In this document: positions 1 to 22,760 of the stretch, one piece after another | Layout of the letters: each line of letters begins with the position of its first letter | Numbering within the stretch: the stretch's first letter is position 1 | Source of the DNA: Eledone cirrhosa | Lineage: Eukaryota | NCBI GenBank assembly: GCA_964016885.1 | Contig: OZ024743.1 | Location: forward strand, 378,634,001 to 378,698,000 | Length of the DNA stretch: 64,000 nucleotides | Direction: 5' to 3' | Translations under genes and position numbers: made by a program | The notes under the pieces: generated by a model | What the model was told of the DNA's origin: nothing | The model's database searches: none | The model's input: the letters and a program-made list of their open reading frames with translations, nothing else

Positions 1-808
1 CACCCTCCCCCACTGCTGATTTTATCACCCAGGTAACGGAAGCTGTCCACTATTTCTATAGAACCCTCTGCACAATTGAAAGAGCTAGTATTTTGTGGGC
101 ACTTGCTGCTACTTATTGCACCAGAGCACCGGCCACATGTAAAATCTATGTTCTTAGTTAGCTTACTTGTGATGCCACTACATCTTTTATGCACCCATAC
201 TTTGCATTTGGGACATAAAATGGAGTTTCTACCTACGCCTTTCCTACACACTGAGCATGGCCATTTCCCGGAAAGGACCGGCGCCTTATTTTCTTTCCTA
301 CAAACTAGAACTTTTGTCTTAGCCAGGTTAATTTTAAGGCCTTTTGATTCTAGGCCGTGCTTCCATGTTTGGAATTTCTTCTCTAGCTCGGCCATTGATT
401 CAGTTATGAGCGTTAGATCATCTGCGTATAGGAGTTCCCATGGGCAGCCGGTCTTGAACTCCTCTGTTATAGCCTGAAGGGCAATAATAAATAGTAGGGG
501 GCTAAGAACAGAGCCCTGATGGACACCAACTTTTACGCTAAACTCTTCACTATATTCGTTGTTAATTCTAACCTTGCTGACTGTTTCTTTATACATGGCT
601 TGTATAGCTCTCACAAGCCATTCGTCAACACCTAGTTTTCTAAGAGCCCACCAGATAATGGAACGGGGGACTCTGTCGAAGGCTTTCTCCAAGTCGACAA
701 AAGCTAAGTATAGGGGTTTACTTTTAGCTAGGTACTTCTCCTGTAGTTGTCATACAATGAAAAGAGCGTCTGTGGTACTTTTGCCTGACACAAACCCGAA
801 CTGCATTA
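1..808 (-). mobile_element. RTE-clade LINE (subfamily B), 5'-truncated RT region with stops, running off the window start
   Basis: Minus strand reads MQFGFV..STTDALFIV, FVDLEKAFDRVP, GVHQGSVLSPLLF, ELLYADDL and WPCSVCRKGVGRNSILCPKCK. Clearly diverged in DNA from the copy at 1480-4141. Confidence 0.9.
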
Positions 809-843
809 TATATATATATGTAATATATATGTATATATATATG

Positions 844-876
<33 letters not shown>

Positions 877-920
877 GTATATATATATGTATATATATAT
901 ATATATTTATATATATATGT
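808..920. repeat. (TA)n microsatellite; similar runs at 1395-1478, 4141-4233, 4638-4676, 5040-5105, 9650-9700, 10604-10635, 20860-20890, 22762-22788
   Basis: Directly visible. These runs separate most of the retroelement insertions. Confidence 0.95.
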
Positions 921-1390
921 ATCATCATTATCATCGTTTAACATCCATATTCCACGCTTGCATGGGTTTGGATGGGAGTTTTCCCACTTGAGGCAAGAGT
1001 GGTTGTCATTGCTCGCATAGGACTGTCTGGCAGGTTTTCTACAGCTGGATGCCCTTCCTAACCCCAACCACATTTGCAGTGTGGAACTGGGAGATTTTTA
1101 CAGTGTTGCCTATACGGCCACATTACAGCATGGACTGTGTGTTTTTTTGTCGTGACACCTACACGATCTCATTTGTTTTGGGCTGGATGTTGTGGCACCA
1201 ACATAACTTTACATTGAAGGGGTGGTGTGGGTGGGGTGGGGGTAGTGGGACGAGGTGTATTTTGTTAGAGGTGCCTACAGACTGTAGTAGGTTTCACTTT
1301 GTACTTAGGCAAGGCGGGTCTTCTCTATTACTGTGTAGCGCCAAAGCTCTCGGTCCAGTGACATTGCCTTGGAGAGGTGTAAGTGTGTGA
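921..1390 (-). mobile_element. RTE LINE 3' end (end of ORF, 3' UTR, (GAT)n tail), second subfamily
   Basis: Minus strand LHLSKAMSLDRELWRYTVIEKTRLA-stop is homologous to the C-terminus of ORF 3449-3859. It is a near-identical inverted copy of 4235-4640. Flanked by (TA)n. Confidence 0.85.
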
Positions 1391-1394
1391 GGTG

Positions 1395-1431
<37 letters not shown>

Positions 1432-1443
1432 CCACGAACTACC

Positions 1444-1477
<34 letters not shown>

Positions 1478-1479
1478 CC

Positions 1480-4141
1480 ACAAGCTATCAAGCACCCATG
1501 TGAAGCCCCAATCCAGAGAGAGGAAGCCCACACACACCCCTGCAAAAATCGACCCTTCCCTATGAGTGTCGACAAATGCCCAAAACTCTGAGTTGGTACC
1601 ATCAATGTAAGCACAATGAAAGGAAGAGCAGGAGAAATTTTAGAAATGCTAGAGCGAAAGGAAATTGATGTATGCTGTGTGCAAGAGACTAGATGGAGAG
1701 GAGAGTCTGCTAGAGTCCTTGTAGGAAAAGTCAGTGCTATAACTTACTAGAGGTGACGGATGAGGTCTGTGGCTGGAGTAAGACCACAGGCAGGAGGAGA
1801 GTGACTTGGTGGTGGAACAATAAGGTAGATGAGGCAGTTAAGGCCAAGAGACAGGCATGGAAAGAATGGAAGAATGGGGGGAGCAGGGTACATTACATAG
1901 AGACCAAGAGGGAAGCTAGGCGACAAGTATACTTAGCTAGGAGCGAAGCAGAGGATAGAAAATTCAAGCATGTTTTGCAACATGAGGACTAGAACCAGGA
2001 GGTGTTCAAGATTGCGAGGCAGTGTGTCAGAGAGAGTTGTGATGTCATTGGAGAGAAGTGTATCCGGAATGATAAAGGTGAGCTTGCCCTCACAAGTGCT
2101 GAGAAGAAAGATGCATGGAAGAGTCATTATGATAGATTACTAAATGAGGAGAATGCATGGGAAGAAGAGACGCTACCCCAAGTAGACCCTATAAAGGGGC
2201 CAGCAGTACAAGTCAGCGGCAGCGTAGTAAGTAAGGCAATCAAAGATATGAAGATGGGGAAGGCAACCGGTCCATCGGGTATAGCTGCCGAGATGCTGAA
2301 GGCATCTGGGTCTGTAGGTCACGCTATAACCACACGTATTGTTAACCAGGTAATACTAAAAGGTGTCATACCAAAAGATTGGTGCAGTAGCATCATTGTG
2401 AACTGCTACAAAGGTGATGCACTAGATAGAAGAAACTATAGAGGTATAAAACTGATGGACCAGGTCATGAAAGTAACAGAAAGAGTTATAGCACAGTTGA
2501 TTAGGGACCAGGTGAAAATAGATGAGATGCAATTTGGGTTTGTACCAGGAAGAAGCACCACTGATGCCCTCTTCCTTGTGAGGCAGTTACAGGAAAAGTA
2601 CCTAGCTAAAAGTAAGCCATTCTACCTGGCATTCGTCGATCTTGAGAAAGCTTTTGACAGAGTTCCACGTGCTGTAATCTGGTGGGCTCTTAGAAAACTA
2701 GGAGTAGATGAATGGCTTGTGAAAGCTGTATTGGGGAGCAGTCAGCAAAGTTAGGATTAGCAATGAGTATAGCGAGGAATTTAGCATACAGGTCGGTGTC
2801 CACCAGGGCTCTGTTCTTAGCCCTCTCCTGTTCATCATAGTCCTGCAGGCAATAACGGAGGAGTTTAAGACCGGATGCCCATGGCAACTCCTGTATGCTG
2901 ATGACCTCGCACTTATAGCTGAATCTATGGTAGAACTAGAGAAGAAATTCCAAACTTGGAAGCAGTGACTAGAAAGAAAGGGTCTCAAAGTCAACATGAC
3001 AAAGACTAAGGTCCTTGTAAGTAGACGAGAAAACAGAACCCAGATCCCCTCAGGAAAATGGCCTTGCTCAGTATGTAGGAAAGGTGTAGGTAGGAACTCC
3101 ATTCTCTGCCCCAAATGCAAACAATGGGTACACAAGAGATGTAGCGGGATCTCAGGAAGCTTAATTAAGAATGTAAGCTTCACATGTAGCAGCTGTGCTG
3201 GGACAGCAAGCAGCAAACAGCCACAGGAAACAAGTACCACCAATCTCTGGAAGGGCTCTGTAGAAACAGTAAACAGTTTCTGCTACCTAGGTGACCAAAT
3301 TAGCAGCGGAGGTGGGTGTACAGAAAGTACAATAACTAGGGTAAGAACGGGATGGAAGAAGTTCAGGGAACTACTGCCACTGCTAGCTGCAAAAGGCTAT
3401 TCCCACAAAATGAAAGGCAGACTGTATGATGCATGTATCTGAACAGCAATGTTGCATGGTAGGGAGACCTGGGCGCTGAAGGTGGAAGACTTACGTAGAT
3501 TAGAGAGAAACGAAGCCTGCATGCTCCGATGGATGTGTAACAATAATATACGTGAACGACAAAGCATAAATGAATTGAGAGAGAGACTGAGCATAAGAGG
3601 AATCAAATGCTGTGTGCAGGAGAGGCGGTTGCGCTGGTATGGACATGTGATGCGTATGAAGGATGACAGCTGCATAAAAAGGTGCAGAACACTAGAAGTC
3701 AATGGAAACCGCGGAGTGGGGAGACCCAAGAAGACCTGGGATGAGGTGATAACAGCCGACCTTACCCAATTACACCTCTCAAAGGCAATGACACACGACC
3801 GTGACCTCTGGTGTCACGCAGTAATACAGAGTACCCGACCTCCCAGGGGTACAAGCTGAAGCCCCCACACCCTCCCACTGCAAGGTGGTCGTGGAGGTGC
3901 CATGGCAAAAAAGCACCCAGCCCACACTGTAAAGTGGACGTGTAGGCGCCACAGAAAAAGCACCCAGCACTCACTGTAAATGAGGTTGGTGTTAGGAAGG
4001 GCATCCAGCTGTAGAAATCAAGCCAAATCAGTTCCTGTATGAGCAAGACAAGGTCAGCCGACCAGACACTGCCCACAACAGGACAATCCGTCTAATCCAT
4101 GCTAGCATGGAAGAATGGACGTAAAACGGTGATGATGATGA
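1480..4141 (+). mobile_element. RTE-clade LINE (subfamily A), decayed: APE endonuclease N-terminus, internal deletion, RT, PHD-like finger, 3' UTR, (GAT)n tail
   Basis: VGTINVSTMKGR..DVCCVQETRW (APE start, ~1590-1730) jumps to TWWWNNKV. RT motifs NYRGIKL, QFGFVPGRST, FVDLEKAFDRV, YADD. C-terminal RRLRWYGHVMR..RGVGRPKKTW. In-frame stops near 1990, 2967 and 3440; frameshift near 2730. Confidence 0.93.
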
Positions 4142-4234
4142 TATATGTATATGTAGTATATATATATGTATATATATATATATGTAATATATATGTATAT
4201 ATATATGTAGTATATATATATATATGTAATATAT

Positions 4235-4640
4235 GCCTAAATACAAAGTAAAACCTACTACAGTCAGTAGGCACCTCTAAAAAAATACACCTCCGCCCCA
4301 CCACATCCACACCACCCCTACCCCATCTACACCACCCCTTTCGATGTAAAGTTATGTTGGTACCACAACATCCAGTCCGAAATGAGGTCATGTAGGTGTC
4401 ACGAAAAAAAACCCACATACAGTCCACGCTGTAATGTGGCCGTGTAGGCAACACGGTAAAAACCTCCTAGCCCCACACTGTAAATGTGGTTGGTGTTAGG
4501 AAGGGCATCCAGCTGTAGAAAACCCGCCAGACAGTCCTATGCGAGCAATGACAACCACTCTTGCCTCAAGTGGGAAAACTCCCGTCCAAACCCATGCAAG
4601 CGTGGAAGATGGACGTTAAACGATGATAATAATGATGATA
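4235..4640 (+). mobile_element. RTE LINE 3' UTR fragment (same subfamily as 921-1390) with (GAT)n tail
   Basis: Reverse complement of ~921-1312; ends ggacgttaaacgatgataataatgatga. A further copy of the tail is at 4775-4822. Confidence 0.85.
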
Positions 4641-4642
4641 TA

Positions 4643-4675
<33 letters not shown>

Positions 4676-4679
<4 letters not shown>

Positions 4680-4775
4680 CCCCTCCATCAACACCACCAC
4701 CAACAGCTCTACCATCAACACCCCCTCCACCACCACCAACAGCCCTACCACCACCCCCTCCACCAACAACAGCTC
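4676..4775. repeat. (CCA)n-rich short tandem repeat
   Basis: Repeated caccccctcca(t/c)ca.caccaccaacagc units. Source of the spurious Pro-rich and Gly-rich ORFs. Confidence 0.75.
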
Positions 4776-4879
4776 CAAACCCATGCAAGCGTGGAACATG
4801 GACGTTAAACGATGATGATGATATATATATATAAATACAGATTCCATTTGTTAATATATTCTGTGTGTGTATGTATATA

Positions 4880-4921
<42 letters not shown>

Positions 4922-5106
4922 CACATGGCTTAATGGTTAGAGCATTGGCCTTGCAATTGAAAGGCTGTGAGTTCAATTCTCAGACTTTCTCCAGTGCCTC
5001 GTTACAGAACTCCAGGATGATATCACATATATACATTGTATGTATATACATATATACGCACATATATATATATATATATATATACGGGTAAATGTATATA
5101 TATATG

Positions 5107-5412
5107 GAGGCACATGGCTTAGTGGTTAGAGCATTGGCCTTGCAATTGAAAGGTTGTGAGTTCAATTCTCAGACCGAGTGATGTGTGTGTTTCCTTGTTT
5201 ATTTCACATTGCTCCAGTTCACTCAGCTGTAGAAATGAGATGATAGGAACTGGGGTCCCTATCATTCCACTGCAAAAAAAGCACCCAGCACTCACTGTAG
5301 ATGAGGTTGGTGTTAGGAAGGGCATCCAGCTGTAGAAATCAAGCCAGAATCAGTTCCCGTCCCACCCTTGCAAGCAGGGAAAAGCGGACATAAAATGATA
5401 ATGATGATGATG
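5107..5412 (+). mobile_element. tRNA-derived SINE with RTE-derived 3' half
   Basis: Head GGCACATGGCTTAGTGGTTAGAGC (box A) ... GAGTTCAATTCTC (box B). 5272-5357 matches the RTE-A 3' UTR at ~3953-4035. (GAT)n tail. A truncated duplicate head lies at 4920-4985. Confidence 0.82.
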
Positions 5413-5429
5413 TATATGTGTGTGTGTGT

Positions 5430-6562
5430 ACGAGTATACATATTCATGTAAAAGTCAAATATTTAGACCATTTTTAAGGTGAAATTTACGGGGTCGACTA
5501 TTTGATGGATACTACTTTTGAGAGGCTTGAATTTCAAGCTAGAATCCAAAGTACCATATAAGTAGCAGAAGCCTAACTAATTTCTAAATGAATAAAAACT
5601 AAATCATATATTACCAATTCTATGTATCAAAACACACATCCTAGTAAATAAGAAAATCCATAAAGGCAGCCTCATAGCTCTTACAAATATTTACATATGG
5701 TCTTTTACTTGTATCCATCAAAATTAACAGACTATCTTAGTGCAATCAACTTAAATCTCATAATTACTTTATATGACCAATATTAGCGAGCCAGGACAAT
5801 CTAATTCAACCATTAACATAGTTTCTTGTGTTGTAATGTAAGCCAAACAAGTTTTTGTGGACAATACTGTGTACATGACCAATACCTGCTTGGCCTGTTT
5901 TACATCACAACTCACCAATAATATTATCTTCATATTCATGGTTAAAGTCACATGCATCATAGATGTGTTAAAGTCACACTCATTACAGCAGGTGTGTTAA
6001 AGTCACACTCATCATGGGAGTGTTAAAAGTCACACCCATCACAGGTGTAGTCACACTCATTGCAGATGTGTTAAAAATCACTCATCACAGGTGTGTTATG
6101 GTACAGTATATTAGTGCTGTATTTTTATTTATAATTAATTCAGTGCAACTTAAAGTTTTAACTCTAGCATTTACTATATTTTCATAGTAAAGGCTTTATC
6201 TCACATAATATGGAATCTACAAGATTCTGATGAAGTTATTTATTTTGAGAACAATACCTTAATGTCAGTATGAGTGGGTGGTTAAGGCCGGTTTGAACAG
6301 AAAGGTGAGAGAATTCTGGCTGTATATGGCCGGTTTAAATACCAAGATTGATAAAAGAAGTAGAATCACGACACCATTCTCTACCACTAACAACCATGAC
6401 AATTTTGTAACAGTTAATTCTACATACAAGATGATAGCTTGACCCACAAATGTTGACCTGTTATCCATGAAATACTAGGGTCAACTTTTATACGAAGTCT
6501 TAGCAAATTTCTAGATTTCTGCCCCAAAATAGGTGATTGACTATTACTTGAGTCTATACGGT
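5430..6562. mobile_element. Probable decayed non-autonomous pogo/Tigger-type DNA transposon
   Basis: Right end ..gactattacttgagtctatacggta resembles TACCGTATA-type TIRs followed by TA. Subterminal ggggtcgact / gggtcaactt motifs occur near both ends. The left TIR is degenerate. Confidence 0.45.
5938..6097. repeat. ~26-30 bp minisatellite (gtgttaaagtcacactcatcacagg), ~6 copies
   Basis: Directly visible imperfect tandem units. Confidence 0.8.
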
Positions 6563-6586
6563 ATATATATATACACACACACATAT

Positions 6587-6743
6587 AAAATTAGGTAGTA
6601 ACATGTGCTTATGCCGTATTTGACTACATAGAATTAGTCTGTTAGTTGGGATTTTAAAAAGCCCTCTGAATGGAAAAAAGGATGAGTATTGACTAATCCT
6701 ATTTAGTCAAATACGGCATAAGCCCATGTTACTACCTAATTTT
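6587..6743. mobile_element. MITE-like foldback element with ~53-bp inverted arms
   Basis: aaaattaggtagtaacatgtgcttatgccgtatttgactacatagaattagtc (6587-6639) pairs with gactaatcctatttagtcaaatacggcataagcccatgttactacctaatttt (6691-6743) with 3 mismatches. Confidence 0.75.
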
Positions 6744-6809
6744 CACATACGCTAGCCGTTTGTAAACAAAGCCTGCTTTGTGTCTCCCTATATATATATA
6801 CATACATTA

Positions 6810-7155
6810 TCATTATTATTGGCACCCTTCGGTCTTGAAAGACCATGAATCTGCACAAATTTTGTGTCAGCTGTGGCCGTACAGGCCCACACAGGAGTGC
6901 CAGTCCTGTATACAGCAACTGCATTTGTAGATGCTCTCCTCCGGTGCTACCGTGTTCTTTTTTCAACCACGCTTTTCCCCGGAGGCAACTTTCAGTTTCT
7001 TCTCCCCTTGCACAGTACTCGTCTCTATTGTGAGTGATCATTGGTGACCTACTCCCACCTCTGGATATCCAGATCAATTGAATTCATATTCCTCCTGCAG
7101 ACATCTTTGAAACAAAGATAAGGTCATCCTCATGTTCTTCTGCCCAGTTCCCCAC
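6810..7155 (-). mobile_element. Decayed RTE-clade LINE 3' end with C-terminal zinc-finger remnant and (AAT)n tail
   Basis: Minus strand gives GELGRRT..LCFKDVCRRNM..WE and CSCCTRDWHSCVGLYGH-like text, typical of RTE C-termini. Frameshifted. Confidence 0.6.
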
Positions 7156-7442
7156 ATAATATATATAGGCACACACAAAGCTGATTATTCCATAGACACA
7201 CGTACCTTTAAAATAATAGTCATAATCAGGGCACAGTATGTGACAAAGCTACAGTCCAACCTTGTATTATAATGCAAGTGGCTGAGCATTCCAGACACAT
7301 GTAACCTTAATGTAATTCAAGTAGAATCAGTATGATACAATATTAGACAAGGTTGGACCATTGATCTACTGGTAGCCAGTTGAATACAGATTGTCAATAA
7401 TATGACCCCTGAAGGCATGGAGAAGTGGATGTGATGATGATG

Positions 7443-7910
7443 GAATTTATTGTGTACAGTGCTCAGGTGCACTACAACTCATCAAAGATGCATGTATAGT
7501 ACATATAATAATGTACAAATGTCAGGAAAGTGATCAGTGTATGAGTCATGATATACACACAGATACATAAGTGCATGTGTATGGAGGGGAATATCAGATG
7601 TAGTGTTGGCGAATTTCAGGAAGCATGGAAGTTTTGAAGGATGCAGTGTCCCGACAGCTATCAACTGATGCTGATAGAGTTGCTGAAGTATGGAACAAAC
7701 TGAGTGTGAAAAAATGTTTCCAAAAGTCATGGGAGCTGTACTGTTTTCTGATTTTGTAAGCATGTCCACTGGTGTTAGACATATGGAATTCAAAAAGGTG
7801 CCCAGGGTTGTTGTTGAAAAGATGGTTAATAATCTTGTGGGCATCTACCAAGTCAGTTGGCAGACGTCGGAGCTTTAATGTATCATGTCCAGGGATGGAA
7901 GGTATTCATT
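7443..7910 (-). mobile_element. CR1-type LINE 3' fragment, same family as 17345-20490
   Basis: Aligns colinearly with 17350-17830 (tagtgctcaggtgcactacaactcatcaaa..; NTSGHAYKIRK..KHFFT). Flanked on both sides by (GAT)n. Confidence 0.88.
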
Positions 7911-8889
7911 TGATGATAATGATGATGATAATGATGATATTTGAAAAAAAGAAAAATCATGCGAAATAAAAAAAGATAAAGACAAAAGAGGTGAGAAAAT
8001 AGAAACCTCTGTTTATTGAAATCAACAGAATAGCAAACTATATTGGTTGGACTGCATTCATGCATCATTGGTCAACATTTATTGAGAGGGAGAATATCAT
8101 TTAAGCAATAAATCTACAAAATATATTTTGAAAATTAAACAACTTCAGCAGATTTCACTAATCTTGATTCACTGTATCAAGTGAGCAGTTTCGTGGGCTT
8201 TTTTGTTATCAATTTATCAATTTCTAAATATTGCAACATTCACAAAATATTAACATACAAATAGTATATATAAAAATAGACATTAAAAAGCTTTATTTTT
8301 TAGAAAAATCCTATTCTCGATTAAAAAACCCAAAACTATTCAGTGAAAAAGAATAGCCCACACCCGAGTGGAGGCAGAAAAGTTCTTGACTTAACCCACT
8401 TCCTAAAATTTTTCAGCAATCCTTTGTATATACAAATGTGATGCTGAAAATGAAACTGGGAGATAGATTATTCCCGTGTTCAGACACACAAAAAAATAGC
8501 TTTCTCAGAAAATAGTCAGACTTCTGTTGTTCTTCAATGCAGATATTAAAATATTAACTTAAATGAAAATTATTCTTTTATGTAACTTGTATGAATGATG
8601 AAATATCTTGTTGGATATTTCAAATACTTCCATGTTTAGAAATTACTCTATAGAATTATCAACAGGCTGGTCCTATGATTAATATAGAACTAAACATAAC
8701 TGATATACAGTGAGACCATTCCAAACTGGTTCAAGTGAATATATGAACAGATATGAACCAAAGTAAATATAACTGCCTCACACCATAAAATATTTCTTTT
8801 TAAAAAATGTTTTTATATAATACCAGGCTTTTTCCATATTCAGTTATTGAAAATTCTTTGGACTGAAAATGTGAGTAACTCTCAAGTAT

Positions 8890-9165
8890 TGGACAAGATG
8901 TGACTGGATGGCCTGATACTACAAGACATTAGAAGATAACAATTGTAATTTCTTGAACATATATTACGCTGTTCTGCTGGGATGGATTTAAAGTAACTTA
9001 TCACTAGTGCAGTGACTGAGGAGAAGACTGGACCAAGCAACAAACGAATCACTTGGTTTGATTGTGTGAAAATGGTCAGTAACAAATTTGAGCTGGAAGA
9101 TATGGATAAAGAAGGATGAAGAGGAGTTATTCATCACAAATTTGCCAACCATCAGGATGATTAAA
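8890..9165 (+). mobile_element. Old RTE/BovB-like LINE C-terminal relic
   Basis: Reads ILQDIRR*QL*FLEHILR..DG..LITSAVTEEKTGPSNKRITWFDCV, resembling the RTE motif YFGHxxR...GKRxRGRxRxxW. Confidence 0.5.
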
Positions 9166-10329: not shown

Positions 10330-10603
10330 AAAGGTTAAACAAGGTTCAATGAATAAATCAAAGAATGCGTTTTACAATAGATTGGAAGCACTCAAGAGAA
10401 ATGGTTTTCCGGAGTTATTAATATTAATTCAAAATATTACCAATGACTGGATCTTAACCATCTACTATGTCAAGGTATGTCATGCATTATCTTATTTTAT
10501 CTGATGAGGACGTACTATTGAAGTTAGCTCAGTACCTCTGAAATATGTATAATAAAATATACTTGATCACAAGAAGTTCTATTTTTGTTAATATTTTGAA
10601 TTA

Positions 10604-17344: not shown

Positions 17345-20300
17345 TAATGAAATTATTGTGTAGTGCTCAGGTGCACTACAACTCATCAAAGGTGCATGTA
17401 TAGTACATAGAATAATGTACAAATGTCAGGAAAGTGAATAGTGTATGAGTCATGATATACATGTGTGCGTGTGAATGGAGGGGGAGTATTAGGTGTAGTG
17501 TTGGTGAATCTCAGGAAGCATGGAGGTTTTAAAGGGTGCAGTGTCTTGACAGCTAACAACTTATGCCGGGAGTTTTTTCCATGCTTCAGCAACTCTGAGC
17601 ATGAAAAAATGTTTCCGAAAGTCATGGGAGATGTGCTGTTTTCTCACTTTGTTGGCATGCCCACGTGTGTTAGACACAAGGAAATCAAAAAGGTACTCAG
17701 GGTTGTTGTTGGCAAGATGGTTAATAATTTTGTGGGTGTTTACCAAGTCAGTTGCCAGACGTCGGGGCTTCAATGTATCCATGCCCAGGGAAGTAAGGCG
17801 TTCAGAGTATGGTAGGTTCAGAGGATGGAGGGTATTCGCTTGGTTGCATATATCTGACCAGTTTCCAGGCAGTCAATGTTCTGAGCAAGATAGGGGTTCC
17901 AGACTGGTGATGCAAATTCTAAGTGTGGCCGCACCATAGCCATGTACAGCCTTAAATAGATAGCTGGAGAGCGGCTAACAAAAGTCTTGCTGAGTGATGC
18001 TAAGACATCCTCAGCCCTTTTGACAATTTTAGAGACGTGCTTCGGCCAACGCAAATCACTGCTGACCGTAATGCCCAGGTCACGTTCACAAGAAGACTTC
18101 TTGATATTAGTGTTGTGGAGGGAGTATGTGGACGCTGGGTTTTTACTCCCAAAATGCATGGTGATACACTTGTCCACAGCTAGCTTGAGTTGCCAGTCTG
18201 AGATCCATTGTTGCATTGTGTCCAGGTCAGACTGCAAGCAAGATCTATAGTGTTCAGGATCTGTCCTTTTTATCTCAAGGTACAGCTTGATGTCATCTGC
18301 GTACTTTAGTACTGTGGCATTCTTTAAGTTGGCATCTATGTCATTAATATATGCCACAAACAAAAGGGGCCAAGAACAGATCCCTGTGGTACACCAGATG
18401 ACATCTCATATGGTGAGGAATGCTGTCCCAGAACCGTGACTACCTCTCTTCGACTGAGAATGAAGGACTTCAACCAGTTAAAAAGATCATCCTTCACACC
18501 CATTGCAGAGAGTTTTGCCATAAGTCTTTTGTGTGGCACAGAATTGAAAGCTTTCGCAAAGTCAAGGTAAACAACATCCACCCATGAGCCGCCATCAGTG
18601 ATCCGGGTGATGTCTTCAAGAAACTTGATAATTTGATCTCAGCAGATGGAGTTGGGGATAAATCCAAATTGCGAGGGCCGGATAAGACTGTGAGAGTTCC
18701 AGAAGTTCCAAAGTGTTTCTCTGACACAGGATTCCATCAGTTTGGCAATGCAACTAGTAAGACTGACTGGACGATAGTTCACAGGTGATGTATGGTCACC
18801 CTTTTTGAACAGAGGAATGACACTGGCAGTTTTCCACTGTTCTGGAGTAGCACCGTTGTTCAGACAGAATTGGAAGAAGCGTGATAGCTGGTGCAGAAGG
18901 AAGTACCCACCACATTTGAGAAGCAGGTACATAACACCATCAAGACCAGGAGAGGCATGGTTGCGTTTATTTTTAAGGCGATGTTGCAGCATTGCAGGTG
19001 TAAATTCCATAGTTGTAATAGAATCCGATGTCATAGGTCGTGGAGACGGTACACTCTGGTCTTCAATAGTGAAAATGCCTGCATAGCATTCAGCAATGAG
19101 TTCTGCGCATTCCTTGGGGTCGTCAGTAACCTGGCTTGTGTGGGAATTGCGAAGAGGACCAACTGGAGAGTGAGGCCTCTGCTTTGAGTGAACATACTTC
19201 CAGAACACCTTACTGTCAGGGCTGGTTGCTATGCGCTGCTCAAATTGAAGCACTGCCTTTTTTGTCACCTGCTTGAGATGGTTGGATGATTTATTTCGTT
19301 TTTTCCTATTGATATCTGACTTATGCAGTTTGTACTCACGTTCAGCATTACAACGTTCTTTTCTGGCAAGACGGACTGCTGCAGTCTCCCAAATTGCACT
19401 TTACGGATGTTTTTTCTGCTTACATGGTACCGATGCTGCACATGTTGTCCATATTTAGTTCAGCATGTTCTGGAGTACAGTGTTGACATCTCCAGAGTCG
19501 TAAAACTCAAGCCAGTTTGGATGTTGCAGCTCGGTGCAGTAACAGTTCCAGTCTGCTTTATTCCAGTCAAAGTGAGCAGCTTGGAGATGGTTGTGGTTCT
19601 TGTTACTGCCCATGAGGGATAGATTGGCAATGATCATAGCATGATCAGTGTCACCTAAAGGTTCCTCAGTAGTAACACTAATAACTGTTTCAGGAGTAGT
19701 GGTGAAGAGCAGATCCAAAGTGTTGCCACCTCTTGTTGGGGAGGTGACTACTTGGGACCAGTTCGAGTCCAGCACTAGCTCAAGGAAATCATTTGCACTT
19801 TGCGCCAATGAAAGGTTTCCCAGTCACTCTCAGGGTGATTGAAGTCCCCTGCAATAAAAACCTAAGTGGCTGTTTTCCTGGCAGCAGATCTGAGGATATC
19901 ACAAAGTTGAGTGTCCTGATGGTAATTAGGGGGACGGTAAACGACTCCAAGTAGCAGTGTTGACAGAGTCATACGCAGAAAAATACCTCTTGCTGCGATT
20001 GGTTCAAATCAACACAAGGAATTGCTGAAAAATTTGACCGAACGTAGACCATTACACCACCACGACAACGATTAATGTGGTCTTTACAAAACAAGTTGTA
20101 GCCAGTTATGCTGAAAACCCCATCACAGAGTAAGGAATGTGCCCATGTTTCTGTGACTGTAATGAAGTCAGAGTCGATACTTTTGACGTAGGAGTCAAAA
20201 AGATGTATCTTATTGAATAGACTACGTGCATTCAAGGACAACAATTTGTACCTTGATTCCAGTCTATGATTATGTGCAGGGGATGGCAGATTGTTCTGAT

Positions 20301-20490
20301 TTAGTTTCCCAGAGTGTTTTCAATTTTTTTTTATTGTCAGTTGTTGTGGCTACAGTGTTTTCAGACCAGCTGGTATCTCTTTTCCATGATTCGCCAGCCT
20401 TAATAAACTTCCATATCTGCCCATCATCTCGTAGGCTGAAGCTTTCATGTTCTGCCAAGTTGCACGTCGAAGAATGTTCGACCACATTGT
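17345..20490 (-). mobile_element. CR1/L2-type LINE with nearly complete but disrupted ORF2 (APE + RT), end of a probable ORF1, 3' UTR and (ATT)n tail
   Basis: LSLNARSL..ITVTETW, GVYRPP, AGDFN, PTRGGNTLDL..DH (APE). NYRPVSLTS, QFGF, DVVYLDFAKAF, SGVPQGSVLGP, YADDIKLY, ERDLGI, RPHLEFASPVWNPY, NTRGH (RT and C-terminus). Several frameshifts. Confidence 0.93.
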
Positions 20491-20861
20491 CCAGGATTAT
20501 AATATTGTAGTAACGATAGTGATGGTCTGTGTATTATGAGAGAACGTTGACCCACATACAATGATATGTCTAGATAATGTGGGTCAACGTTCTCTCATAA
20601 TACACAGACCACCACAAACACTACAATGATATGTCTAGATAATGTGGGTCAACGTTCTCTCATAATACACAGACCACCACAAACACTACAATGATATGTC
20701 TAGATAATGTGGGTCAACATTCTCTCATAATACACAGACCACCACAAACAATACAATGATATGTCTAGATAATGTGGGTCAACGTTCTCTCATAATACAC
20801 AGACCACCACAAAAACTACAATGATATGTCTAGATAATGTGGGTCAACGTTCTCTCATAAT
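20486..20861. repeat. Short array of a 65-bp monomer related to the 67-bp satellite: one forward copy plus ~4.7 inverted copies
   Basis: Unit CTACAATGATATGTCTAGATAATGTGGGTCAACGTTCTCTCATAATACACAGACCACCACAAACA starts at 20621, 20686, 20751 and 20816. Its reverse complement aligns with the satellite monomer (catatcattgtag...gtggtggtctgt.tatt...cacatt). Confidence 0.88.
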
Positions 20862-20897
20862 ATATATATATATATATATATATAAATATATGTGTGT

Positions 20898-21158
20898 AGA
20901 AGTTCAATTTAAATTGTTGGGATACAACAAGCAAATATTTTTATAACTGATATAAAGCACTCAACAAATAATTGGAGTAGGGAGCTTCCAACAGTAATGG
21001 TTGCATTCTTTAAGAGTATGTCAATATTTATTTATAAAACTGCTCTATATTATATTTTATCTGATGAAAGCACACCATAATTTAACTTGGTGTCCTTGAA
21101 ATATGTATAATGAAATAAATATGGTTTTATAAATATAGTTTCCATTTGTTAATATCGT
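20898..21158 (+). mobile_element. Short non-coding hammerhead-bearing element (Penelope pLTR / retrozyme-like) inserted in (TA)n
   Basis: ~260 bp bounded by TA runs, with the same order of conserved words as 10330-10604. Its 3' end also resembles the fragment at 4831-4860. Confidence 0.55.
21053..21117 (+). ncRNA. Minimal type I hammerhead ribozyme motif (second, diverged copy)
   Basis: Stem I UAUUUUAU/AUGAAAUA; CUGAUGA (21061-21067); stem II AAG-C-ACACCA/UGGUGU-C-CUU; GAAA (21098-21101); same stem III; predicted cleavage after 21109. Stem II covaries with the copy at 10493. Confidence 0.77.
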
Positions 21159-21167
21159 ATATATATA

Positions 21168-22760
21168 TCATCATCACCGTTTTACGTCCGTTCTTCCACG
21201 CTAGCATGGGTTAGACGGGTTGTCCTGTTGTGGGCAGTGTCTGGTCGGCTGACCATGCCTTGCTCATACAGGAACTGATTTGGCTTGATTTCTACAGCTG
21301 GATGCCCTTCCTAACACCAACCTCATTTACAGTGAGTGCTGGGTGCTTTTTCGTGGCGCCTACACGTCCACTTTACAGTGTGGGCTGGGTGCTTTTTTTC
21401 CGTGGCACCTCCACGACCACCTTGCGGTGGAGGGTGTGGGGGCATATTGTCTATATGCTTCAGCTTGTACCCATGGGAGGTCGGGTACTCTGTATTACTG
21501 CGTGACGCCAGAGGTCACGGTCGTGTGTCATTGTCTTTGAGAGGTGTAATTGGGTAAGGTCGGCTTTTATCACCTCATCCCAGGTCATCTTGGGTCTCCC
21601 CACTCCGCGGTTTCCATCAACTTCTAGTGCTCTGCACCTTTTTATGCAGCTATCATCCTTCATACGCATCACATGTCCATACCAGCGCAACCGCCTCTCC
21701 TGCACACAGCATTTGATTCCTCTTATGCTCAGTCTCTCTCTCAATTCATTTATGCTTTGTCGTTCACGTATATTATTGTTACACATCCATCGGAGCATGC
21801 AGGCTTCGTTTCTCTCCAATCTACGTAAGTCTTCCACCTTCAGCGCCCAGGTCTCGCTACCATGCAACATCGCTGTTCGGATACACGCATCATACAGTCT
21901 GCCTTTCATTCTGAGGGAGAAGCCTTTCGCAGCTAGCAGTGGTAGTAGTTCCCTAAACTTCTTCCATCCCGTTCTTACCCTAGTTATTGCACTTTCTGAA
22001 CACCCACCTCCGTTGCTAATTCGGTCACCTAGGTAGCAGAAGCTGTCAACTGTTTCTACAGGGCTCTCCCAGAGATTGGTGGTACTTGTTTCCTGTGGCT
22101 GTTTGCTGTCTCAGCACAGCTGCTGCATGTGAATCCTACATTCTTAATTAAGCTTCCTGAGATCCCGCTACATCTCTTGTGTACCCATTGTTTGCATTTG
22201 GGGCAGAGAATGGAGTTCCTACCTACACCTTTCCTACATACTGAGCAAGGCCATTTCTCTGAGGGGATCTGGGTTCTGTTTTCTCGTCTACTTACAAGGA
22301 CCTTAGTCTTTGTCATGTTGACTTTGAGACCCTTTCTTTCTAGTCCCTGCTTCCAGGTTTGGAATTTCTTCTCTAGTTCTACCATAGATTCAGCTATGAG
22401 TGCGAGGTCATCAGCATACAGGAGTTCCCATGGGCATCCGGTCTTAAACTCCTCCGTTATTGCCTGCAGGACTATGATGAACAGGAGAGGGCTAAGAACA
22501 GAGCCCTGGTGGACCCCAACCTGTACGCTAAATTCCTCGCTATACTCATTGCTAATCCTAACTTTGCTGACTGCTCCCCTATACATGGCTTGTACCGCTT
22601 TCACAAGCCATTCATCTACTCCTAGTTTTCTAAGAGCCCACCAGATTACAGCACGTGGAACTCTGTCAAAGGCTTTCTCAAGGTCGACAAATGCCAAGTA
22701 GAGTGGCTTACTTTTAGCTAGGTACTTTTCCTGTAATTGCCTCACAAGGAAGAGGGCATC
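21168..22760 (-). mobile_element. RTE LINE subfamily A, 5'-truncated copy inserted in (TA)n
   Basis: ORFs 22056-22745 and 21460-21909 are nearly identical to those in 2560-3859. Has YADD, the C4HC3 finger, 3' UTR and (GAT)n tail. Confidence 0.94.

What the first reader, a model, noticed from the sequence alone, without database searches (positions are those of the whole stretch)
21053..21117. Second hammerhead with fully covarying stem II, inside the elongase intron
Seen: same core, stem I and stem III as the 10493 motif, but stem II is rewritten (AAG-C-ACACCA/UGGUGU-C-CUU versus GGA-C-GUACU/AGUAC-C-UCU). Pairing is preserved and so is the C-C mismatch at position 4. Stem I has one A-to-G change that still pairs as G-U. 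The carrier bodies share only short words (AAGCACTCAA at 10386 and 20955; TTTGTTAATAT at the ends). Inference: structure was selected across two diverged subfamilies, and the C-C mismatch may be a family-specific feature or tertiary contact. Both motifs are on +, antisense to the elongase, so this copy would not cut the host pre-mRNA.
Basis: partly seen in the sequence, partly recalled or inferred. Interest (0 to 1): 0.78.

Follow-up and report, generated by a model that had tools for sequence, protein, structure and literature searches.

The report
Retrotransposon hammerhead with conserved C·C mismatch
This is a hammerhead-shaped RNA motif at the end of a truncated Penelope-like jumping gene, one of about 92,000 such motifs in this genome, and nearly all of them keep an unusual unpaired C·C (or C·U) spot that is likely functional.

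Summary
The motif is real. It is a type I hammerhead with core, AUA cleavage triplet and a 2-bp palindromic stem III. It is not a 250-300 nt carrier RNA. Window 20895-21160 is a broken insertion of a Hydra-clade Penelope-like retrotransposon (PLE) in (TA)n: an inverted 85-nt tail plus a 5'-truncated 3' end. Full copies elsewhere are 3.4-4.2 kb, with hammerhead, RT + GIY-YIG ORF, long 3' UTR and a second hammerhead. The 10493 motif belongs to a sister family (54% protein identity). A core-plus-stem-III pattern has 92,261 matches genome-wide (control 234), and 93.8% have C·Y at stem II position 4. Across 12 subfamily representatives all 8 stem II pairs covary, while position 4 never pairs. The mismatch persists across families whose endonucleases share only 36-72% identity. 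Inserted copies decay neutrally, so selection acted on the transposon lineages, not on this intronic copy. PLE hammerheads, and a Hydra family in octopus, are published; I found no report of the C·Y variant or this copy number. Cleavage, expression and antisense bias are untested.

The parts
21053..21117 (+). Type I hammerhead of PLE family A; predicted cut after A21109 (AUA triplet)
   Evidence: Sequence; covariation
21068..21097 (+). Stem II: 3 bp, C21071·C21094 mismatch, 6 bp, 10-nt loop
21101..21108 (+). Stem III, 2 bp plus self-complementary loop (AUAUGUAU); likely dimer-forming
   Evidence: the dimer role is inferred from PMC4209133
20980..21160 (+). 5'-truncated 3' end (pLTR part) of the family A PLE, ending at the short terminus
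   Evidence: 99.4% identical to the upstream pLTR of full-length copy L197; 97% to L204
20895..20979 (-). Inverted tail: an opposite-orientation copy starting at the long terminus and cut after ~85 nt; it has no hammerhead; AAGCACTCAA is the reverse complement of a tail motif
   Evidence: 95-98% to the tails of full copies
20860..20891 (.). (TA)n target tract, left flank; the right flank is TA repeats at about 21159-21168
10493..10559 (+). Hammerhead of sister family B; predicted cut after A10551
10451..10607 (+). 5'-truncated 3' end of a family B PLE
   Evidence: 87% to unit L162
10319..10443 (-). Inverted tail of the family B insertion
   Evidence: 87% to L162
16322..63127 (-). Elongase (ELO family) intron, 46.8 kb, GT-AG, phase matches; holds the 21053 insertion antisense

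Best explanation
The motif is the hammerhead in the terminal repeat of a Hydra-clade Penelope-like retrotransposon, left here as a truncated, partly inverted insertion in a (TA)n tract; in the parent element it likely cuts the tandem transcript only as a dimer or with help from the element's protein, and its C·Y mismatch is likely a selected structural feature. Shown: full copies run hammerhead, 87-nt tail, ATG 188 nt after the cut site, RT + GIY-YIG ORF, 3' UTR of up to ~1.7 kb, second hammerhead. Insertions end at two fixed sites about 50 and 140 nt past the cut site. The window copy is one arm from each site, joined head to head. Inferred from the anole PLE work (PMC11167929): the protein nicks AT-rich DNA on both strands and starts reverse transcription at two internal RNA sites, which gives the tail and the inverted pair. 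Inferred: the 2-bp stem III is too weak alone, and its palindrome pairs two hammerheads. The C·Y mismatch would either dock stem II on stem I in place of loop-loop contacts or be read by the protein. This intronic copy is antisense, young and likely a passenger.
For: Walking upstream links family A and family B to RT + GIY-YIG ORFs on the hammerhead strand. 6 of 11 family A stretches picked for long frames have hammerheads at both ends, units 3.4-4.2 kb; family B L162/163 is a 4,001-bp tandem with an inverted copy upstream. Hydra-clade motifs RWR, DKT, CxCx5C and CxxC..E..N..CxH are present. ESM Atlas neighbours carry HTH_animal, GIY-YIG and RVT_1 at 0.95-0.98. Two fixed ends; variable junctions. 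Covariation: 16 of 21 pairs change on both sides, 0 of 500 shuffles as high; stem II 8 of 8; position 4 paired in 0 of 12; the palindrome pairs in 100% of cells with A-U to G-C and U-G to U-A to C-G swaps. C·Y in 86,574 of 92,261. Families with 36-72% endonuclease identity share it. Among 49 family A copies from loci fetched by UTR or ORF queries, the core varies 1.7%, loop 2.0%, flanks 1.2-3.0%: neutral after insertion.
Against: No cleavage or expression data. No intact full-length ORF was seen (longest open frames 662 and 612 aa), so current activity is not shown. Pfam gave no significant hit and the PDB search gave only unrelated weak hits. Clade assignment rests on motifs compared by eye, not on a tree with published proteins. 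Units are longer than the '<3 kb' typical of Hydra. G10.1-C11.1 is absent (A-U here). The 10493 copy does not fold better than shuffles. The shuffle control ignores relatedness, and C·Y may have arisen once and been inherited. In the anole PLE, hammerhead cleavage was not needed for insertion in vitro.
Confidence: 0.85

Rival explanations
1. The ~270-nt unit is a non-autonomous retrozyme or SINE that spreads through its own small circular RNA.
For: Many dispersed ~270-290 bp look-alikes at 89-95% identity. Retrozymes derive from PLE terminal repeats (bioRxiv 10.64898/2026.07.22.740005).
Against: The first third of the unit is the inverted tail. 19 junction forms in 25 parsed copies; truncation lengths run from 7 to over 1,500 nt. 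No head-to-tail ~270-bp array was seen in the window or in the BLAST of 90 loci.
Confidence: 0.05
2. The C·Y mismatch is not catalytic architecture but a protein-recognition or attenuating feature that keeps the ribozyme off until the RT-EN protein binds.
For: The anole PLE hammerhead cut only with protein present (PMC11167929). Stem I here is a plain duplex with no obvious loop partner. C·C and C·U are both tolerated.
Against: No binding data. The fixed distance of 3 bp from the core also fits a stem I-stem II docking site. This is a variant of the best explanation, not exclusive of it.
Confidence: 0.35
3. The mismatch is a frozen accident inherited from one ancestor and has no function.
For: All carriers belong to one related group of families in one genome; the Hydra hammerheads in the published table lack it.
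Against: The 5' C is invariant in 12 of 12 representatives while every neighbouring pair was rewritten, over 36-72% endonuclease identity.
Confidence: 0.12
4. This intronic copy has been co-opted to regulate the elongase gene.
For: Intact core inside a host intron.
Against: It is antisense; it is 99.4% identical to another copy, so intactness reflects youth; copies decay neutrally. At ~31 motifs per Mb, two in a 64-kb window is expected.
Confidence: 0.03

Closest known systems
Hydra-clade PLEs, incl. Hydra-1_Obim (Craig et al. 2021, PMC8557442; section 11, passages, supplement parts 1-2 and a term search seen)
   Same: RT with C-terminal GIY-YIG; DKT, CxCx5C, CxxC/CxH motifs; (TA)n targets; sense hammerhead near the 3' end; tandem and inverted copies.
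   Different: Different protein and hammerhead from Hydra-1_Obim (by eye). Units 3.4-4.2 kb with a 1-1.9 kb 3' UTR. Stem III is 2 bp plus palindrome rather than 3-4 bp. None of the 26 Hydra rows in File S2 shows a mismatch inside stem II (by eye; their descriptor may exclude such motifs). The paper found only a small number of extra families.
PLE minimal hammerheads (Cervera and de la Pena 2014, PMC4209133; parts 1-2 of 4 read)
   Same: Type I, in pLTRs, long helix II, palindromic helix III, mostly single truncated copies, opposite-strand pairs 100-700 bp apart, families rich in covariation.
   Different: Here stem I is 8 bp, there is no extra nucleotide between 9 and 10.1, G10.1-C11.1 is not conserved, and a 1x1 C·Y mismatch sits at position 4 (D. 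virilis has a one-sided bulge). About 92,000 motifs against 2,000-9,000 reported there.
PAc Poseidon element of Anolis (Frangieh et al. 2024, PMC11167929; parts 1-2 of 4 read)
   Same: Two internal reverse-transcription start sites that define a tail; both-strand nicking of AT-rich DNA; hammerhead at the pLTR-ORF junction.
   Different: Other clade. The tail here is ~87 nt (30-40 nt typical) and lies upstream of the ATG, not inside the ORF.
Non-LTR retrozymes (PMC7229834, passages; bioRxiv 2026.07.22.740005, part 1 and passages)
   Same: Type I hammerhead, weak palindromic helix III as in amphibians, very high copy number (axolotl 126,247).
   Different: Those are non-coding 150-450 bp tandem monomers; this is the end of an autonomous ~4-kb element.

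Membership tests
Type I hammerhead ribozyme | Core CUGAnGA and GAAA, A15.1-U16.1, NUH triplet | tested here: met
   invariant in 12 representatives, partly by search design
Type I hammerhead ribozyme | Stems I and II supported by covariation | tested here: met
   stem I 6 of 8 and stem II 8 of 8 pairs with two-sided change; R-scape not available
Type I hammerhead ribozyme | Conserved G10.1-C11.1 pair | tested here: not met
   A-U 6, G-U 4, G-C 2 of 12; the pair is known to vary in natural hammerheads (PMC3088659 passage)
Type I hammerhead ribozyme | Loop 1-loop 2 tertiary nucleotides of canonical motifs | tested here: inconclusive
   Loop 2 varies freely in length and sequence; only C·Y is fixed
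Type I hammerhead ribozyme | Match to an Rfam hammerhead model | tested here: not met
   No hammerhead among 28 matches at E<=1
Type I hammerhead ribozyme | Self-cleavage | not testable with these tools
   No assay; no RNA run listed
Penelope-like element | Single RT + GIY-YIG ORF flanked by direct or inverted pLTRs, with optional tail | tested here: met
   all copies seen have frame breaks
Hydra clade of PLEs | DKT, CxCx5C linker, CxxC and CxH around conserved E and N | tested here: met
Hydra clade of PLEs | RWK motif | tested here: inconclusive
   RWR at the same place in families A and B
Hydra clade of PLEs | (TA)n insertion and sense hammerhead | tested here: met
Hydra clade of PLEs | Generally under 3 kb (typical, not strict) | tested here: not met
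   3.4-4.2 kb because of the long 3' UTR
Hydra clade of PLEs | Groups with Hydra RTs in a tree | not tested
   Published sequences were compared by eye only
Non-LTR retrozyme | Non-coding tandem monomers of 150-450 bp, one hammerhead each | tested here: not met
Non-LTR retrozyme | Circular RNA | not testable with these tools

The most novel reading that the evidence does not exclude
A new hammerhead subtype, defined by a C·Y mismatch three pairs from the core plus a palindromic stem III, replaces loop-loop docking with a mismatch-mediated contact or a protein switch. At ~87,000 copies (29 per Mb) it is among the densest ribozyme populations known, and sense intronic copies could cut host pre-mRNAs whenever the transposon protein is expressed.
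Probability: 0.3. Interest if true: 0.62.

Novelty: new variant of a known kind. Interest (0 to 1): 0.42.

Why it matters
The role of PLE hammerheads is still open. This genome offers a natural mutational scan: stem II was rewritten many times around one fixed mismatch, which points to a single testable position. The group also shows both reverse-transcription start sites and a tail motif shared across families, so the anole mechanism can be tested in a second clade. About 92,000 motifs that Rfam misses give enough copies to test whether ribozyme-bearing insertions are purged from the sense strand of introns. The copy in the elongase intron is itself ordinary.

Tried and rejected
Rfam scan: no hammerhead hit. 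Pfam: nothing significant for 3 proteins. PDB sequence search: only ZER1 at E 0.03, rejected. Sequencing runs: no RNA holder listed; laying the three listed contig runs says nothing on expression or cleavage. Earlier-findings look-ups were empty. Lunse et al. 2017 is not held; I saw only a review's summary, and its variants may include this one. Naiad clade was considered and rejected: the endonuclease is C-terminal and the motif is DKT. Retrozyme/SINE was rejected. One search required C..C and is circular alone, so it was paired; covariation used only loci fetched without that constraint. A first upstream-sharing script timed out. Genome-wide antisense bias could not be tested without gene annotation; balanced contig strands (46,712 / 45,549) say nothing about it. 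Cofolding two copies did not give the active dimer as the minimum-energy form, and the 8-nt palindrome duplex is only -2.2 kcal/mol.

Full report
OBSERVATION. The motif is present as described. Stem I is 21053-60 with 21110-17. The core is CUGAUGA at 21061. Stem II has 3 bp, C21071·C21094, 6 bp and a 10-nt loop. GAAA is at 21098, stem III is AUAUGUAU, and the predicted cut follows A21109. A hammerhead-core scan of the first 24 kb found only this motif and the one at 10493. The elongase is on the minus strand, with exons near 63.1 kb, 16.3 kb and 15.1-15.4 kb. The intron 16322-63127 holds the 21053 motif antisense; the 10493 motif lies about 4.5 kb past the stop codon. Folding energy alone is unremarkable and Rfam has no hammerhead match.

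IT IS A HIGH-COPY REPEAT. Both carriers are dispersed in the 3.0-Gb genome G000, with 1,840 and 2,821 first-look candidates. The exact flanking pattern has 15,189 matches, control 0. A looser core-plus-stem-III pattern has 92,261, control 234, about 31 per Mb. The pattern does not test stems I and II, but nearly all of the 100 listed rows show the family stem II by eye. The host is probably an octopod; this is my inference from recalled repeat sequences, and no call names it.

THE CARRIER IS A BROKEN PLE. The first 100 nt of the 291-nt query are inverted relative to the rest in several loci. Walking upstream reached a GIY-YIG domain and then an RT on the hammerhead strand for both families. 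Of 11 family A stretches chosen for long frames, 6 have a hammerhead at each end, with units of 3,438-4,240 bp. Family B locus L162/163 is a 4,001-bp tandem with an inverted copy upstream. The ATG lies 188 nt after the cut site. Window 20980-21160 is 99.4% identical to the upstream repeat of L197, and 20895-20979 is the reverse complement of the tail that follows the hammerhead. The 10493 insertion has the same build. All 96 family A rows end at about +3 or at about +90 relative to the short terminus. The reference stops near +92, and at least 6 rows are upstream repeats that run on into the ORF. Among 28 look-alike rows printed, 25 junctions parsed into 19 forms. So each ~270-bp unit is a separate inversion and truncation event, not a copy of a small RNA.

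CLADE. Natural frames show RWR, DKT, YRDD, CxCx5C and CxxC..E..N..CxH, matching the Hydra-clade definition in Craig et al. 2021 (PMC8557442). By eye they follow that paper's Hydra alignment but differ from Hydra-1_Obim in protein and hammerhead. ESM Atlas neighbours carry PLE-type families at 0.95-0.98. Pfam and the PDB gave nothing useful. Families A and B share 54% over 409 aa and 65% DNA in the ORF; outside it only the hammerhead aligns. No intact full ORF was seen, and I built no tree.

COVARIATION AND THE MISMATCH. 208 copies from loci fetched without a C..C constraint (mostly families A and B) pair at 86-98% at stem II positions 1-3 and 5-9, and at 0.5% at position 4: C·C 187, C·U 9, other 12. 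I aligned 12 of the 16 clusters, dropping four bulged, close or decayed variants. 16 of 21 pairs change on both sides; 0 of 500 shuffles reach the covariation score of 0.64, and slid controls give 0.10-0.20; position 4 pairs in 0 of 12. The shuffle ignores relatedness. The stem III palindrome pairs in every cell with compensatory swaps; the search pattern fixed its purine-pyrimidine alternation but not its complementarity. Genome-wide, C..C holds in 13,961 of 15,189, in 13,207 of 14,085 for families with G after the cut site, and C..Y in 86,574 of 92,261. Two further C·C families lie 1.2-1.3 kb downstream of their own Hydra-type endonucleases (three loci and one locus); the C·U family is linked by one interrupted locus. 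Endonuclease identities among the five families are 36-72%. Other hammerheads in the loci, with 3-4 bp stem III, lack the mismatch, as do the 26 Hydra rows in the published table, read by eye.

WHERE SELECTION ACTED. In 49 family A copies from loci fetched by UTR or ORF queries, variation is 1.7% in the core, 1.7% in paired stem II, 1.0% at C·C, 2.0% in the loop and 1.2-3.0% in the flanks. Inserted copies thus decay about evenly, and the conservation belongs to the transposing lineages. Family B (31 copies) is less even (core 0.9%, loop 6.0%, C·C 6.5%), which mixes subfamily differences with decay.

MECHANISM. Shown: the architecture, two termini, (TA)n targets, covariation and the fixed mismatch. 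Inferred from PMC11167929: both-strand nicking and two internal start sites give the tail and the inverted arms, and the hammerhead may be protein-assisted and not needed for insertion. Inferred from PMC4209133 and a review (PMC6765202): short palindromic stem III hammerheads act as slow dimers that process tandem transcripts. My own calculation gives only -2.2 kcal/mol for the palindrome duplex and did not favour the active dimer. The function of C·Y is unknown; I favour a stem I-stem II docking role slightly over protein recognition.

NOVELTY. PLE hammerheads, covarying families and a Hydra family in Octopus bimaculoides are published. Searches found no report of the C·Y variant or of this copy number. 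An O. vulgaris repeat annotation has no mention of 'hammerhead' or 'Hydra' in its main text (PMC13282606). Lunse et al. 2017 was not available, and I did not see the supplements of PMC4209133 or PMC7229834; any of these may hold similar motifs. Verdict: new variant of a known kind, interest 0.42.

Noticed in passing
window 20955-20964 and 10386-10395 (minus strand); L198:1620-1740; L162 downstream of 2953; family H tails: A GTYGAGYGCT motif lies in the tail of families A, B and H, and a second copy follows the long terminus in A and B. It is a candidate binding site for the RT-EN protein.
   Followed up: partly
L198:1700-1715; L162 about 3165: The long terminus is followed by ATATAT in the element itself, which could pair with a nicked (TA)n target to prime reverse transcription.
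   Followed up: no
window 23278-62642: A 67-bp satellite of 587 copies (39 kb, 94% match) fills most of the elongase intron.
   Followed up: no
window 20526-20862: A 65-bp tandem repeat (4.7 copies) preceded by an inverted copy that forms a long hairpin.
   Followed up: no
window 1-3860, 21460-22760 and 17820-20320: Broken LINE fragments (RTE-like and CR1-like, labels recalled) with long RT frames.
   Followed up: no
L018, L053, L087, L152, L155, L160, L179: Further type I hammerhead families with 3-4 bp or longer stem III and no C·Y mismatch; parents not traced.
   Followed up: partly
L193, L201, L358, L174: Hydra families often insert inside one another's 3' UTRs, giving nested hammerheads.
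   Followed up: partly
L209, L211, L233: A subfamily with U·U at the base of stem II plus the C·C mismatch.
   Followed up: no
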